DNA of 64,000 bases. Origin: Candidatus Altimarinota bacterium. Lineage in GTDB: Bacteria > Patescibacteriota > Gracilibacteria > 1-14-2-50-48-13. Numbering within the stretch: position 1 is the stretch's first letter; every line of letters starts with the position of its first letter. The stretch covers positions 416,001 to 480,000 of the forward strand of contig JBKBWQ010000001.1 of the NCBI GenBank assembly GCA_046314355.1. The letters run 5' to 3'. Below, piece by piece: positions 59,898 to 64,000 of the stretch. Position numbers and translations under genes: made by a program. The notes beneath the pieces were generated by a model that was given only the letters and a program-made list of their open reading frames with translations, had not been told where the DNA came from and searched no databases.

Positions 59898-60075
59898 AGG
59901 AAGGAAGGAATAAAGTAAATAAGTAAAAGAGTAATTCAGTAATTGGGCGCACATTATTGGACTCCTATCATTGGGCTGCAATTATTGGGGCACAGTGATG
60001 TGCGCCCAATTATTGAGCCTAATTACCGAGCCCAAATTACTTACTTACCAATTACTCTCTTACTTTCCTTATTTT
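59898..60075. repeat. Family B element with internal ~14-bp unit array (copy 1)
   Basis: ttgggcgcacatta/ttggactcctatca/ttgggctgcaatta/ttggggcacagtga/tgtgcgcccaatta/ttgagcctaatta/ccgagcccaaatta between octamer arms. Confidence 0.9.
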
Positions 60076-60895: not shown

Positions 60896-61432
60896 TTAAT
60901 TCTTTTTAAAGAAATTACCAAAGGCAGCACGGGAAGCAACGCGTACTGCTTTTTTTTGCGATGCAGCACGGAGAAAATCCGTCACTTGAGTACTCTCCCG
61001 GAGCAGTTCATCTATTTTTGCCTGAGATACGCCCCTCTTTCTTGCTTCTTCGATAAGCTTATTCGTATTTGCTTCAAAGTATTTCAGAGATTTCGTATTT
61101 GATTGGCTAAAGAGATCCGCAATATCTCCAATCACAGGTATAAATCCATACCCAAGGTCAATCGCCTGATGTTTAAATATTTTCCACATGTCAGCAGTGG
61201 AGAGCTTTGCTTTTTTTGCTTCGTAAAACAAGTATGCAGATGCAAGAATAGCAACTCCCGCATCTCCGACAGCTGGGATAAGACCTAGAAGAAAGTCCAC
61301 TCCCTTTTTATCCATGATATTTGCAAAAAGTCTTACTCTTTCCTCTGCACTCTTTGCATGAGCAATTTGTGTTAAAATTCTTTCATGTTCATGATCCCAG
61401 ATCTCTGGTGTAATAATTTCTTTATTAGACAT
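60896..61432 (-). CDS. DUF4112-like membrane protein
   Basis: GVDFLLGLIPAVGD ... IDLGYGFIPVIGDIADLF..N. Confidence 0.8.
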   Translation of the reverse strand: MSNKEIITPEIWDHEHERILTQIAHAKSAEERVRLFANIMDKKGVDFLLGLIPAVGDAGVAILASAYLFYEAKKAKLSTADMWKIFKHQAIDLGYGFIPVIGDIADLFSQSNTKSLKYFEANTNKLIEEARKRGVSQAKIDELLRESTQVTDFLRAASQKKAVRVASRAAFGNFFKKN

Positions 61433-61462
61433 TTGACAGAAATTAATGATGTAGGGTAAAAT
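61433..61462 (+). promoter_or_regulatory. Sigma70 promoter for candidate ncRNA
   Basis: TTGACA-18 nt-TAAAAT, pointing antisense to the flanking genes. Confidence 0.65.
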
Positions 61463-61468
61463 ATTATT

Positions 61469-61583
61469 GAAGGTAATGAATCACTTCAATTTGTCCTCTT
61501 ATCATTCGTCCGTCGGGATACATATGCCATATTACTTGGCCCCACGGCAATGGTAGGACAGAAGAGATTCTTACCTTCTTTTT
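61469..61583 (+). ncRNA. Candidate ~115-nt rod-shaped ncRNA of unknown class
   Basis: Nested stems join the 5' and 3' ends; ends in U5; own promoter. Confidence 0.65.
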
Positions 61584-61594
61584 AATATGTCACT

Positions 61595-62194
61595 TTATAT
61601 CTTTCCGCTGAAAAAAGCAACGATTCGCTCAAAGAACTCATTGTGCTTTTTCTGCATACTTTTCAGTGAAGGTTCAAAAACAATAAGCGCAAGTGGGATA
61701 AGTATAACTGTAGTAAAACCTCCAAGAATAAGGAGTAAATCTCTCAGCCCAATTTGAAGGTTTACAAATTGCGTAATAATCGCAACTACAAGGGATATGA
61801 TAATTCCTACAATTAACCCGTAGACGAAGATTCCAGAAAGAACGTTCACAGATTCCTCTTCATCTTCTTCTTCCTTTCTCTCGCAATTCATAATATCAGC
61901 AAGCAAATCTGAAGAGACTACCACATATGAATTAGTCCTTTCATCAGGCTTAAGAGATTTAATTTGACCTATAAGATGATCCAGTTCATGAGTCTGCACC
62001 ATACTGACAAATTTAGTAAAATCTACACTCACTCGTGAAGCGATTGAAGCAATTTTTACGTCAGATTCTTTTAAAAGTCCCTGGAAAACCTCTCTAGGAT
62101 CTTTATCAATTAAATCTTGAAGTATCTCTTTAGTTTGCTGCTTTGTCCGATGCTGAGGTTGTGCATCATTTCGAAGATTGAGTTCGTCTGCCAT
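61595..62194 (-). CDS. Two-TM membrane protein
   Basis: Cytoplasmic N-domain, acidic patch, two hydrophobic helices. Confidence 0.7.
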   Translation of the reverse strand: MADELNLRNDAQPQHRTKQQTKEILQDLIDKDPREVFQGLLKESDVKIASIASRVSVDFTKFVSMVQTHELDHLIGQIKSLKPDERTNSYVVVSSDLLADIMNCERKEEEDEEESVNVLSGIFVYGLIVGIIISLVVAIITQFVNLQIGLRDLLLILGGFTTVILIPLALIVFEPSLKSMQKKHNEFFERIVAFFSGKI

Positions 62195-62324
62195 ATGAGG
62201 AAAGTACATTAAAAACACTGGAATAAGTTGAGACTAGACTACACTAAATCCCTCTCGAAGTGGATAGGATATGGAAGGATGCGCTTGACGAATGAAGGGA
62301 GTGACGGGACGTGATAAGGGGGAA

Positions 62325-62463
62325 GAAAGTAAATGAGTAAGAGAGTAATTAAGTAACTGGGCTCACATCATTGGACTCCTATCATTGGGCTGCAATTATT
62401 GAGCTCAATTATTAGAGCCCAATGATTGTGCCCCAATTACTTATTTCCTTAATTACCGAGCCC
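62325..62463. repeat. Family B element with ~14-bp unit array (copy 2)
   Basis: ctgggctcacatca/ttggactcctatca/ttgggctgcaatta/ttgagctcaatta/ttagagcccaatga/ttgtgccccaatta. Confidence 0.9.
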
Positions 62464-62880: not shown

Positions 62881-63000
62881 AGAGTAAGAAAGTAATTGGG
62901 CTGACATTATTGGACTCCTATCATTAGGCTGCAATTATTGAGCTCAATTACTGAATTATGCGTACCCAATTATTGTGCCCAATTATCGAGCCTCCTTACT
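62881..63000. repeat. Family B element with ~14-bp unit array (copy 3)
   Basis: ttgggctgacatta/ttggactcctatca/ttaggctgcaatta/ttgagctcaatta/../tgcgtacccaatta/ttgtgcccaatta. Confidence 0.9.
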
Positions 63001-64000
63001 TCACCGACACACTCTTCTTCGTCATCTGCACATTTCCATTCTTATCCTGTACTCTTAACGTCACATCATAGTTACCTGCTTTGTTGTATCTATGGACAGG
63101 TTTCACTTCATTTGCAGCAGTTCCATCTCCAAAGTCCCATCTGTAGCTAATAATCTTTCCTTTAGAAAGTGATCCGTCAAAGGTCATGGTTACTGGTGCC
63201 TGACCTGATTCAGGTGAGACTGTAAAGATAGGAAGAAGCTGTTCTTCAAGTACAGATATAGCCTGGGTTGTTTCTGTCTTTGTACCATCAGTGGTTCTCA
63301 CAGTAAGTTTTACAATGTAGTTTCCTGGTGACTGAAATTCATGAGTGATCTGAGCACCTGTAATTTGAGGTGCCGTTCCATCACCAAAGTCCCAAACATA
63401 GGATCCAATACTTCCCTTGGAATAGCTTGACCCTGATGCGTCAAAAGCAACTGCAAGAGGTGCTTCTCCAGCAAGAGGATCTGCATTGATGATAGCGGTA
63501 AGATCTTCAGCATTTACCTCAACATTCATTGTTGCCTCTGAGCTATTGCCAGCACTATCTGTAACCTGCAGTGTAAGTATAAAATTACCTGGTGTCTTAT
63601 AAATGAAACTTGCATCTTTACCTGTTTTATCAAACTTCTTATCTCCATCAAAATCCCACTTCCAGTCTACAATATCATTTTCAGGATCAGTAGAAAACGA
63701 TCCATCAAGAGTAAGGGAAAGAGGTATATTACCACGTATGACACTTGTCGAGTCAGAATCTAATGCACGAGGAAGGCTATCTGATTTTACCCGTATACGT
63801 GCAGTCGGAGCGCCCTTAGCAGTTTCAATTGAGATGAGCTGAGTAGTATCTGCAGTGGTACCTAGGTCAGTTTTAATACTAAGTTTTACGGTATATTTCC
63901 CTGCTTTTCTATAAATATGATCTGCATTCACTCCTGTGGATGTCGCTGAACCATCACCAAAATCCCACGTATATTCTACAATTCGTCCCTGAGGTGTAGT
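62996..64000 (-). CDS. Multi-PKD-domain surface protein, C-terminal part (starts beyond window)
   Basis: Repeated WDFGDG / H.Y..AG.Y.V.L PKD motifs; the frame stays open to the window edge. Confidence 0.92.
   Translation of the reverse strand, partial: TTPQGRIVEYTWDFGDGSATSTGVNADHIYRKAGKYTVKLSIKTDLGTTADTTQLISIETAKGAPTARIRVKSDSLPRALDSDSTSVIRGNIPLSLTLDGSFSTDPENDIVDWKWDFDGDKKFDKTGKDASFIYKTPGNFILTLQVTDSAGNSSEATMNVEVNAEDLTAIINADPLAGEAPLAVAFDASGSSYSKGSIGSYVWDFGDGTAPQITGAQITHEFQSPGNYIVKLTVRTTDGTKTETTQAISVLEEQLLPIFTVSPESGQAPVTMTFDGSLSKGKIISYRWDFGDGTAANEVKPVHRYNKAGNYDVTLRVQDKNGNVQMTKKSVSVK

What the first reader, a model, noticed from the sequence alone, without database searches (positions are those of the whole stretch)
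61433..61583. Promoter-driven rod-like ncRNA candidate antisense to its neighbours
Seen: TTGACA-18-TAAAAT is followed by a sequence whose predicted +1 region pairs with its 3' end. Stems: gaaggtaa/ttaccttc (61469-76/61571-78), gaatc/gattc, cttc/gaag, tgtcct/aggaca, atcatt/aatggt (one G-U), ccgt-ggg/cccacgg, gcca/tggc, then U5. It is GC-richer than its flanks and I see no ORF. It lacks the SRP GGAA-tetraloop/CAGG motif and is shorter than a typical 6S RNA with no large central bubble. Inference: a discrete ~115-nt structured RNA, either novel or a very divergent 6S/SRP-like RNA.
Basis: partly seen in the sequence, partly recalled or inferred. Interest (0 to 1): 0.72.

Follow-up and report, generated by a model that had tools for sequence, protein, structure and literature searches.

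The report
Family-specific hairpin small RNA gene
A short stretch between two genes of an uncultured Gracilibacteria-type bacterium looks like a small, hairpin-shaped RNA gene with its own promoter; two related genera carry it too, it is neither the SRP RNA nor the 6S RNA, and its function is unknown.

Summary
TTGACA-18-TAAAAT (61433-61462) sits 6 nt before a 110-nt unbranched hairpin (61469-61578) that ends in U5 (MFE -44.7 kcal/mol, z -7.35, 0 of 200 shuffles as stable).

Two other genera of the same family (records titled Candidatus Gracilibacteria) have the same architecture at the syntenic place: TTGACR, a 15-nt spacer, GGGTAnAnTA, 4-5 nt, then GAAGG...closing stem...CCUU(C). The closing stem shows two compensatory pair changes, and the 5' arm carries a conserved UUGUCCU motif.

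It is single-copy and matches no Rfam family. It does not belong to the genome's abundant palindromic repeat family.

- **SRP RNA is excluded.** The genome and its class lack Ffh and FtsY, a loss already reported for CPR bacteria (PMC8080830).
- **6S RNA is excluded.** A class-specific model finds a normal-type ~160-nt 6S candidate elsewhere in the genome.

My verdict is a probable new, narrowly distributed small RNA gene. It has no expression data and only three sequences. My best guess at function is a cis-antisense RNA against the convergent membrane-protein transcript. Interest is moderate to low.

The parts
61433..61462 (+). Sigma-70-type promoter: TTGACA, an 18-nt spacer and TAAAAT, with GGG just before the -10 box (GGGTAAAAT).
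   Evidence: scores it 11 of 12. The same block (TTGACR, 15 nt, GGGTAnAnTA) occurs in G002 and G003. The composite TTGAC-N14-16-GGGTAnAnT occurs only twice on the 1.62-Mb contig. This promoter type is in use here: 14 of 37 tRNA genes have TTG[AC]-N18-20-TAnA[AT]T upstream, against 26 of 5000 random windows.
61469..61583 (+). Predicted small RNA: a 110-nt unbranched hairpin plus a U5 tail.
   Evidence: MFE -44.7 kcal/mol, z -7.35. The orthologous hairpins in G002 (z -4.64) and G003 (z -4.19) start 4-5 nt after the -10 box.
61469..61476 (+). 5' strand of the closing stem (GAAGGUAA).
   Evidence: It pairs with 61571-61578. The first five pairs are identical in two of the three genomes and differ on one side only in G003. 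Homologous pairs 6 and 8 change on both sides.
61490..61504 (+). Conserved 5'-arm motif UUUGUCCUCUUAUCA. It covers part of helix UGUCCU/AGGACA, the CUU bulge and the start of the next helix.
   Evidence: TTGTCC is invariant in the three-sequence alignment.
61571..61583 (+). 3' strand of the closing stem (UUACCUUC) plus the U5 tail; terminator-like.
   Evidence: G002 ends CCUUC plus U6. G003 ends CCCUUUAC, with a U run further on.
61595..62218 (-). Convergent neighbour: a 207-aa (or 199-aa from the ATG at 62194) predicted membrane protein of no known family. Its stop codon lies 11 nt from the RNA's 3' end.
   Evidence: Orthologues in G002 (53% identity) and G003 (46%) keep the RNA downstream on the opposite strand.
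60896..61432 (-). Divergent neighbour: a DUF4112 protein gene whose ATG abuts the -35 box.
   Evidence: In G002 and G003 a murA-like gene (EPSP_synthase family) occupies this position.

Best explanation
This is an independently transcribed, non-coding small RNA gene specific to one family of Gracilibacteria-class (CPR) bacteria.

A strong sigma-70-type promoter (TTGACA, 15 nt, GGGTAAAAT) would start transcription at or next to the G of GAAGG. The transcript folds end to end into a rod whose 8-10-bp closing stem plus U tail serves as its own terminator. The product is about 110-115 nt here and about 90-108 nt in the relatives. That part is inferred from sequence and conservation, not shown by transcript data.

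Proposed mechanism, a further inference. The RNA is a cis-encoded antisense RNA. The convergent membrane-protein gene has no terminator of its own before the hairpin, so its transcript must run into or through the complement of the RNA gene. The two RNAs would then be fully complementary over about 110 nt. The RNase III encoded in the genome could cleave the duplex, and the opposing strong promoter could block read-through into the next - strand gene.

I put about 0.65 on 'real sRNA gene' and about 0.3 on this particular mechanism.
For: - **Stability:** the hairpin is far more stable than shuffles.
- **Position:** the hairpin base lies 6 nt after a near-consensus promoter.
- **Conservation:** the whole unit is conserved in G002 and G003 at the syntenic place. 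The promoter hexamers and their spacing are kept while the 15-nt spacer sequence varies, and GAAGG lies 4-5 nt after the -10 box.
- **Covariation:** homologous pair 6 of the closing stem is A-U in one genome and G-C in another. Pair 8 is A-U, G-C and A-U in the three genomes.
- **Promoter type:** tRNA genes of this genome use the same type. The extended GGGTAnAAT form recurs at promoters across the class. The full composite occurs only twice in 1.62 Mb.
- **Uniqueness:** it is single-copy and not part of the palindromic repeat family.
- **Non-coding:** there is no frame-specific amino-acid similarity and no shared start codon. The genome shows no Shine-Dalgarno signal (7% of genes against 7% in the control region).
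- **Mechanism:** the RNA is convergent with the 207-aa gene or its operon in all three genomes, and it stayed with that gene when murA moved 6.6 kb away in this genome. RNase III is present. Hfq, CsrA and Ro were not found.
Against: - There are no transcript data of any kind.
- Only three distinct sequences exist, all from one family. A fourth family genome (85% complete) showed no copy.
- Once the closing stem is removed, the interior of the G002 and G003 hairpins is no more stable than shuffles (z -1.35 and -1.11). The conserved structure is therefore mainly the terminal stem.
- Folding energy does not choose the strand. G002 folds slightly better on the other strand.
- G003 lacks a clean U tail.
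- Strict consensus promoter sites occur at chance frequency genome-wide.
- In G002 a 91-codon ORF lies between the 207-aa gene and the RNA.
- Synteny among three related genera is weak evidence for a functional link.
- A cis-antisense role does not by itself explain why the 5'-arm motif is conserved.
Confidence: 0.6

Rival explanations
1. It is a real sRNA, but it acts in trans. The rod, with its conserved bulged 5'-arm motif (UUGUCCUCUU), is either a protein-binding platform or a base-pairing seed for distant mRNAs.
For: The 5' arm and the motif are the best-conserved RNA parts. The motif spans a bulge in the G000 fold, as protein-binding sites on rod RNAs often do (general knowledge).
Against: - In this genome the motif is mostly paired.
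- No Hfq, CsrA or Ro was found.
- Translation-initiation regions of the neighbouring genes rank at the bottom for duplex energy (1191 to 1471 of 1498).
- The genome shows no Shine-Dalgarno usage, so an anti-SD-like CCUCUU seed has little to target.
Confidence: 0.22
2. It is not an RNA gene. The hairpin is a structure in the - strand operon transcript (a terminator, processing site or stabiliser after the 207-aa gene), and the + strand promoter-like block is incidental or serves something else.
For: The - strand folds nearly as well. The element lies directly after a - strand stop codon. Long hairpins are common in this genome's intergenic regions.
Against: - A + strand promoter is kept at a fixed 4-6 nt from the hairpin base in three genera, with a variable spacer sequence.
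- The U tail is on the + strand in G000 and G002. No U tract follows the - strand hairpin in G002 or G003.
- G003 has six G-U pairs on the + strand, which would be A-C mismatches on the - strand.
Confidence: 0.12
3. It is a highly structured mRNA for a small hydrophobic peptide, like a type I toxin.
For: One frame is open for 38-43 codons in all three sequences and reads (F/V)VLL across the conserved motif. G002 has an ATG giving a 40-aa hydrophobic peptide. Pairing between the 5' and 3' ends is typical of type I toxin mRNAs (recalled).
Against: - There is no shared start codon. G000 has none in that frame, and its own ATG opens a different frame.
- Cross-frame BLOSUM scores show no frame preference.
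- There is no Shine-Dalgarno usage, and GAAGG lies 0-2 nt from the ATGs.
Confidence: 0.04
4. It is a very divergent SRP (4.5S) RNA or 6S RNA.
For: It is rod-like and promoter-driven. Rfam finds neither SRP RNA nor 6S RNA in this genome.
Against: - **SRP:** no SRP_SPB domain and no SRP54 GTPase were found in the genome. No full-length SRP54 domain was found in 41 class genomes, and no SRP RNA in 61. The loss is reported for CPR bacteria (PMC8080830, passage read). The hairpin has no GNRA loop and no domain IV motifs.
- **6S:** a full-length 6S candidate lies elsewhere at G000:C1:544451-544613 (36 bits, E 1.6e-6), and G002 has one too.
- **Model scores and shape:** the hairpin gives no hit to RF00013 or RF00169 at E<=10. 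It has no two-sided central bubble.
Confidence: 0.02

Closest known systems
3'-overlapping cis-antisense sRNAs, such as RatA/txpA and SR4/bsrG of Bacillus subtilis (recalled, not from a call)
   Same: A small, structured, promoter-driven RNA is transcribed convergently to a protein gene, so that the 3' regions can pair. RNase III is available.
   Different: The partner here is a 207-aa membrane protein, not a toxin of under 60 aa. Overlap of the two transcripts is inferred, not shown. There is no sequence relation.
6S RNA (Rfam RF00013)
   Same: A rod-like, abundant-type RNA with a strong promoter of its own.
   Different: It is about 110 nt rather than about 155-190 nt and has no central bubble. 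It gives no model hit. The genome has a separate 6S candidate.
Bacterial small SRP RNA (Rfam RF00169)
   Same: A single hairpin of about 100-115 nt.
   Different: It has no GNRA tetraloop or domain IV loops and gives no model hit. There is no Ffh or FtsY for it to work with.
Intrinsic (bidirectional) terminators between convergent genes
   Same: A hairpin followed by a U run lies between convergent transcription units.
   Different: The stem-loop is about 110 nt, far longer than a terminator, and it begins at a conserved promoter's start site. The whole transcript would be the hairpin.
The genome's own palindromic intergenic repeat family (about 130 nt, units AATTATTGGGC)
   Same: A long intergenic hairpin. 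Three copies lie within 1.6 kb of the candidate.
   Different: The family profile does not hit the candidate even with all filters off and E<=1000. The candidate is single-copy.

Membership tests
Bacterial small SRP RNA (RF00169) | A score against the covariance model (domain IV helix with GNRA tetraloop and conserved symmetric and asymmetric loops) | tested here: not met
   No hit at the gathering score and none at E<=10 on 451 nt. The apical loop is a 7-nt UAUUACU.
Bacterial small SRP RNA (RF00169) | The partner protein Ffh (SRP54 GTPase plus M domain) and the receptor FtsY are encoded | tested here: not met
   PF02978 gave 0 matches. PF00448 gave only P-loop fragments below the cut-off in the own genome. 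Of 41 class genomes, 10 had weak partial matches and none was full-length. A motif scan found no open frame with the G1 and DTAGR motifs (the motifs are recalled).
6S RNA (RF00013) | A score against the covariance model; closing stem, large central bubble and apical stem; about 150-200 nt | tested here: not met
   No hit at E<=10. The RNA is 110 nt and its largest loop is a one-sided 8-nt bulge.
6S RNA (RF00013) | It is the genome's 6S locus (normally one, or a few paralogues) | tested here: not met
   The class-specific model R3 finds a full-length candidate at G000:C1:544451-544613 and one in G002. It re-finds the Rfam-detected 6S of G016 as a control.
Y RNA / Ro RNP | A Ro (TROVE) protein is encoded | tested here: not met
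   PF05731 gave 0 matches.
CsrB/RsmZ-type protein sponges | CsrA is encoded, and the RNA carries repeated GGA motifs in loops | tested here: not met
   PF02599 gave 0 matches. There are no repeated loop GGA motifs.
cis-encoded antisense sRNA (3' overlap type) | An independent promoter on the strand opposite to a gene, with convergent orientation | tested here: met
   seen in all three genomes. This rests on sequence only, with no transcript data.
cis-encoded antisense sRNA (3' overlap type) | The two transcripts actually overlap, and the sRNA affects the target mRNA | not testable with these tools
   No RNA run was listed.
Structured ncRNA in general | Covariation supports the helices | tested here: inconclusive
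   Two compensatory pairs were found in the 10-bp closing stem among three sequences. The interior cannot be aligned reliably and is not significantly stable in G002 or G003.

The most novel reading that the evidence does not exclude
The rod RNA is the RNA subunit of a lineage-specific ribonucleoprotein in these reduced, SRP-less bacteria. The conserved bulged UUGUCCUCUU helix would be the protein-binding site, which would make this a new class of stable housekeeping RNA rather than a local regulator.
Probability: 0.07. Interest if true: 0.7.

Novelty: new member of a known kind. Interest (0 to 1): 0.33.

Why it matters
Almost nothing is known about small RNAs in CPR/Patescibacteria. Two of my literature searches turned up nothing relevant: 'Candidate Phyla Radiation' with '6S RNA' returned 0 papers, and a Gracilibacteria plus sRNA-term search listed nothing relevant.

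A promoter-to-terminator hairpin RNA conserved across three genera gives a concrete, testable sRNA candidate in this group. It would also be a seed for a new RNA family.

The work shows as well that the Rfam 6S model misses the 6S RNA of this family, while a class-specific model finds it.

The significance is limited. The element is narrowly distributed, it is unverified at the transcript level, and its function is unknown.

Tried and rejected
**Searches for homologues**
- BLAST of the 162-nt region against 60 relatives gave only chance-level short matches and missed the true homologues.
- The single-sequence covariance model R1 found G003 only weakly (E 0.004-0.04) and G002 at E 0.13. It also hit the reverse strand and the palindromic repeats, so it could not give a clean alignment.
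- MAFFT and RNAalifold alignments of the three RNAs were out of register. I therefore read covariation from a homology-based pair table of the closing stem only.
- The class-wide pattern GAAGG..TTGTCCT..CCTTC over 401 genomes was badly designed. It missed G000 by one base of gap and G003 by its 3' end, and its 36 hits were no more numerous than those of the reversed-pattern control.
- The strict promoter+GAAGG+TTGTCC pattern found 2 records in genome contigs, the G002-like and G003-like ones. It found 2 metagenome contigs whose sequence is identical to G002's over the 175 nt compared. No new diversity came from either scan.
- The sequence-only model R2 over 151 class genomes gave strong hits (E 1e-13 to 1e-16) only for G000, G002 and G003. 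I inspected ten of the next-best hits (E 3e-4 to 0.03). They are generic promoters without the motif or a closing stem.
- I inspected 30 murA loci. Only the G002 and G003 loci carry the unit. The 27 other-family genomes and G000's own murA locus show no promoter-plus-hairpin upstream of murA. There is also no intergenic space after the 207-aa orthologue of G016.

**Expression**
- No RNA holder was listed.
- Laying contigs gave only one near-identical contig, which may be the source of this DNA, and no variants.

**Other tests that led nowhere**
- Neighbouring genes were not enriched in the target prediction against translation-initiation regions. The duplex structures printed there looked odd, so I give that test little weight.
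- Protein-family, NCBIfam and Atlas searches gave no function for the 207-aa protein.
The faster version used 9-nt exact seeds and so does not list the candidate, whose longest exact arm is 8 nt.
- I did not request supplementary files of papers.

Full report
**What is there.** The 162-nt gap between two - strand genes holds three elements. The genes are a DUF4112 protein (60896-61432) and a 207-aa predicted membrane protein of no known family (61595-62218). On the + strand the gap holds:
- TTGACA, an 18-nt spacer and TAAAAT at 61433-61462, scored 11 of 12;
- six bases later, a 110-nt unbranched hairpin at 61469-61578;
- a U5 tail.

The energy is -44.7 kcal/mol against -22.2 +/- 3.1 for 200 dinucleotide shuffles (z -7.35; none as stable). 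The other strand folds nearly as well (-41.5, z -6.45). GC is 0.41 over the hairpin and 0.29-0.34 in the adjacent windows.

**Is it a repeat or a known RNA?** Rfam 15 gives no hit in the whole window at gathering scores. On 451 nt around the element it gives only meaningless hits at E of 1 or more. The element is single-copy in its 1.69-Mb, 98%-complete genome.

That genome is rich in long intergenic hairpins. A palindromic repeat family of about 130 nt has 59 loci at E<1e-3, three of them within 1.6 kb of the candidate (59920-60070, 62333-62463, 62881-63008). The family profile does not touch the candidate even with all filters off.

**Homologues.** BLAST found none in 60 relatives. Following the 207-aa gene did. 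It has orthologues in two of the three other genomes of the family (53% and 46% identity). Downstream of each, on the opposite strand, lies the same unit:
- TTGACG, a 15-nt spacer and GGGTA(C/T)A(A/C)TA;
- 4 nt further on, GAAGG opening a hairpin closed by ...CCUUC plus U6 in G002, or ...CCCUUU in G003.

Both hairpins fold as unbranched rods (z -4.64 and -4.19). The records are titled Candidatus Gracilibacteria bacterium.

Within the promoter the two hexamers and the spacing are kept while the spacer sequence differs. That is the footprint expected of a promoter. In the 10-bp closing stem, five pairs are unchanged in all three genomes. Pair 1 changes on one side (G-C to G-U). Homologous pair 6 is absent, A-U or G-C, and pair 8 is A-U, G-C or A-U, so there are two compensatory changes. 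A 5'-arm motif (U/G)UUGUCCU is conserved.

**Limits of the comparative evidence.**
- There are only three distinct sequences. Two metagenome contigs are identical to G002's copy over the 175 nt compared.
- The fourth family genome, 85% complete, has no match.
- A sequence model of the promoter and 5' arm finds only these three among 151 class genomes. The next hits are ordinary promoters.
- Of the 30 murA loci I inspected, only those of G002 and G003 carry the unit; the 27 other-family genomes show nothing comparable there.
- With the closing stem removed, the interior is significantly stable only in this genome (z -3.78). In G002 and G003 it is not (z -1.35 and -1.11).
- Energy does not choose the strand.

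**Is the promoter credible?** Strict consensus sites are no more frequent than in shuffles (46 against 42-49), so the motif alone proves nothing. Three things support it:
- 14 of 37 tRNA genes carry TTG[AC]-N18-20-TAnA[AT]T within 70 nt upstream, against 26 of 5000 random windows.
- The extended GGGTAnAAT form recurs at promoters across the class.
- The full composite occurs only twice on the 1.62-Mb contig, once here and once 35 nt before an ORF.

**SRP-like?** No. Rfam small and large SRP models find nothing in the genome, and the small model finds nothing in any of 61 class genomes at E<=1. The SRP M domain gives 0 matches. The SRP54 GTPase domain gives only sub-threshold P-loop fragments. 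Of 41 class genomes, 10 have weak partial matches, one is just over the cut-off, and none is full-length. A motif scan of all six frames found no Ffh- or FtsY-like frame. A passage in PMC8080830 states that two SRP subunits are absent in many CPR bacteria (only that passage was read). The loss is therefore known, and there is no partner for an SRP RNA.

**6S-like?** No. Rfam 6S finds matches of about 155 nt in 10 of 36 class genomes outside this family, two of them over the cut-off, and none in the family. I built a model from four of those matches. It finds a full-length candidate in this genome at G000:C1:544451-544613, outside the window (36 bits, E 1.6e-6). It finds another in G002 (E 4.9e-8) and re-finds the known one in G016. 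The candidate has a promoter, a long closing stem and the CCCAC(U/C)U and ACGGUAUUUUGGG segments of the class 6S RNAs. Rfam misses it even at E<=1. The hairpin under study is therefore not the genome's 6S RNA, and it lacks a central bubble.

**Coding?** Unlikely. One frame is open in all three sequences, and G002 has a 40-aa hydrophobic ATG frame. However, there is no shared start and no frame-specific similarity. The genome also shows no Shine-Dalgarno signal: 7% of 1084 crude genes have one, against 7% in a control region.

**How it may work.** The RNA is convergent with the 207-aa gene, or with a 91-codon ORF after that gene in G002. It is divergent from the next - strand gene, which is murA-like in G002 and G003 and DUF4112 here. 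In this genome murA lies 6.6 kb away, and the RNA stayed with the 207-aa gene.

No terminator lies between the 207-aa stop codon and the hairpin, a gap of only 11 nt. The - strand transcript should therefore contain the complement of the RNA. RNase III is encoded, while Hfq, CsrA and Ro were not found.

I therefore favour a cis-antisense role: duplex formation with the 3' part or the read-through of the - strand transcript, followed by RNase III cleavage or collision-based insulation of the downstream gene. This is inference, at about 0.3. A trans-acting or protein-binding role for the conserved 5'-arm motif is the main rival. Duplex prediction against neighbours' start regions gave no support.

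**Verdict.** This is a probable new, family-restricted small RNA gene. Without transcript data and with three sequences only, I put about 0.6-0.65 on it being a real sRNA gene. Interest is moderate to low.

Noticed in passing
window 59920-60070, 62333-62463, 62881-63008; 59 loci genome-wide: A palindromic intergenic repeat family of about 130 nt, built from alternating AATTATTGGGC-like units. Each copy folds into a very stable hairpin (z about -8). It has 59 loci at E<1e-3 in the 1.69-Mb genome.
   Followed up: partly
G000:C1:544451-544613 (+), outside the window; G002:C6:96289-96453: A full-length 6S RNA candidate (163 nt) found with a class-specific model (36 bits, E 1.6e-6). Rfam RF00013 misses it even at E<=1.
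   Followed up: partly
whole genome G000 and 40-60 class relatives: No Ffh, FtsY or SRP RNA was detectable. This agrees with a published remark that SRP subunits are absent in many CPR bacteria (PMC8080830).
   Followed up: yes
G000, 3' flanks of about 12 tRNA genes: A conserved trailer, TTCTTCGCTTCTCACGAAGCTACG (a small hairpin), directly follows many tRNA genes. There are 8 exact and 12 relaxed copies in the genome.
   Followed up: no
whole genome G000: ARAGORN finds 39 tRNAs but no tmRNA and no tRNA with anticodon UCA. murA has no in-frame TGA here, whereas several class relatives show 4-33 in-frame TGA codons. This genome therefore seems to use the standard code, unlike part of its class.
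   Followed up: no
whole genome G000: No Shine-Dalgarno enrichment upstream of 1084 crude gene starts (7% against 7% in a control region), although the 16S 3' end carries GGATCACCTCCTTTC.
   Followed up: no
class relatives (loci L133-L144) and window 61454-61462: Promoters across the class share an extended -10 box of the form GGGTAnAAT, often with an A-rich stretch after TTGAC.
   Followed up: partly
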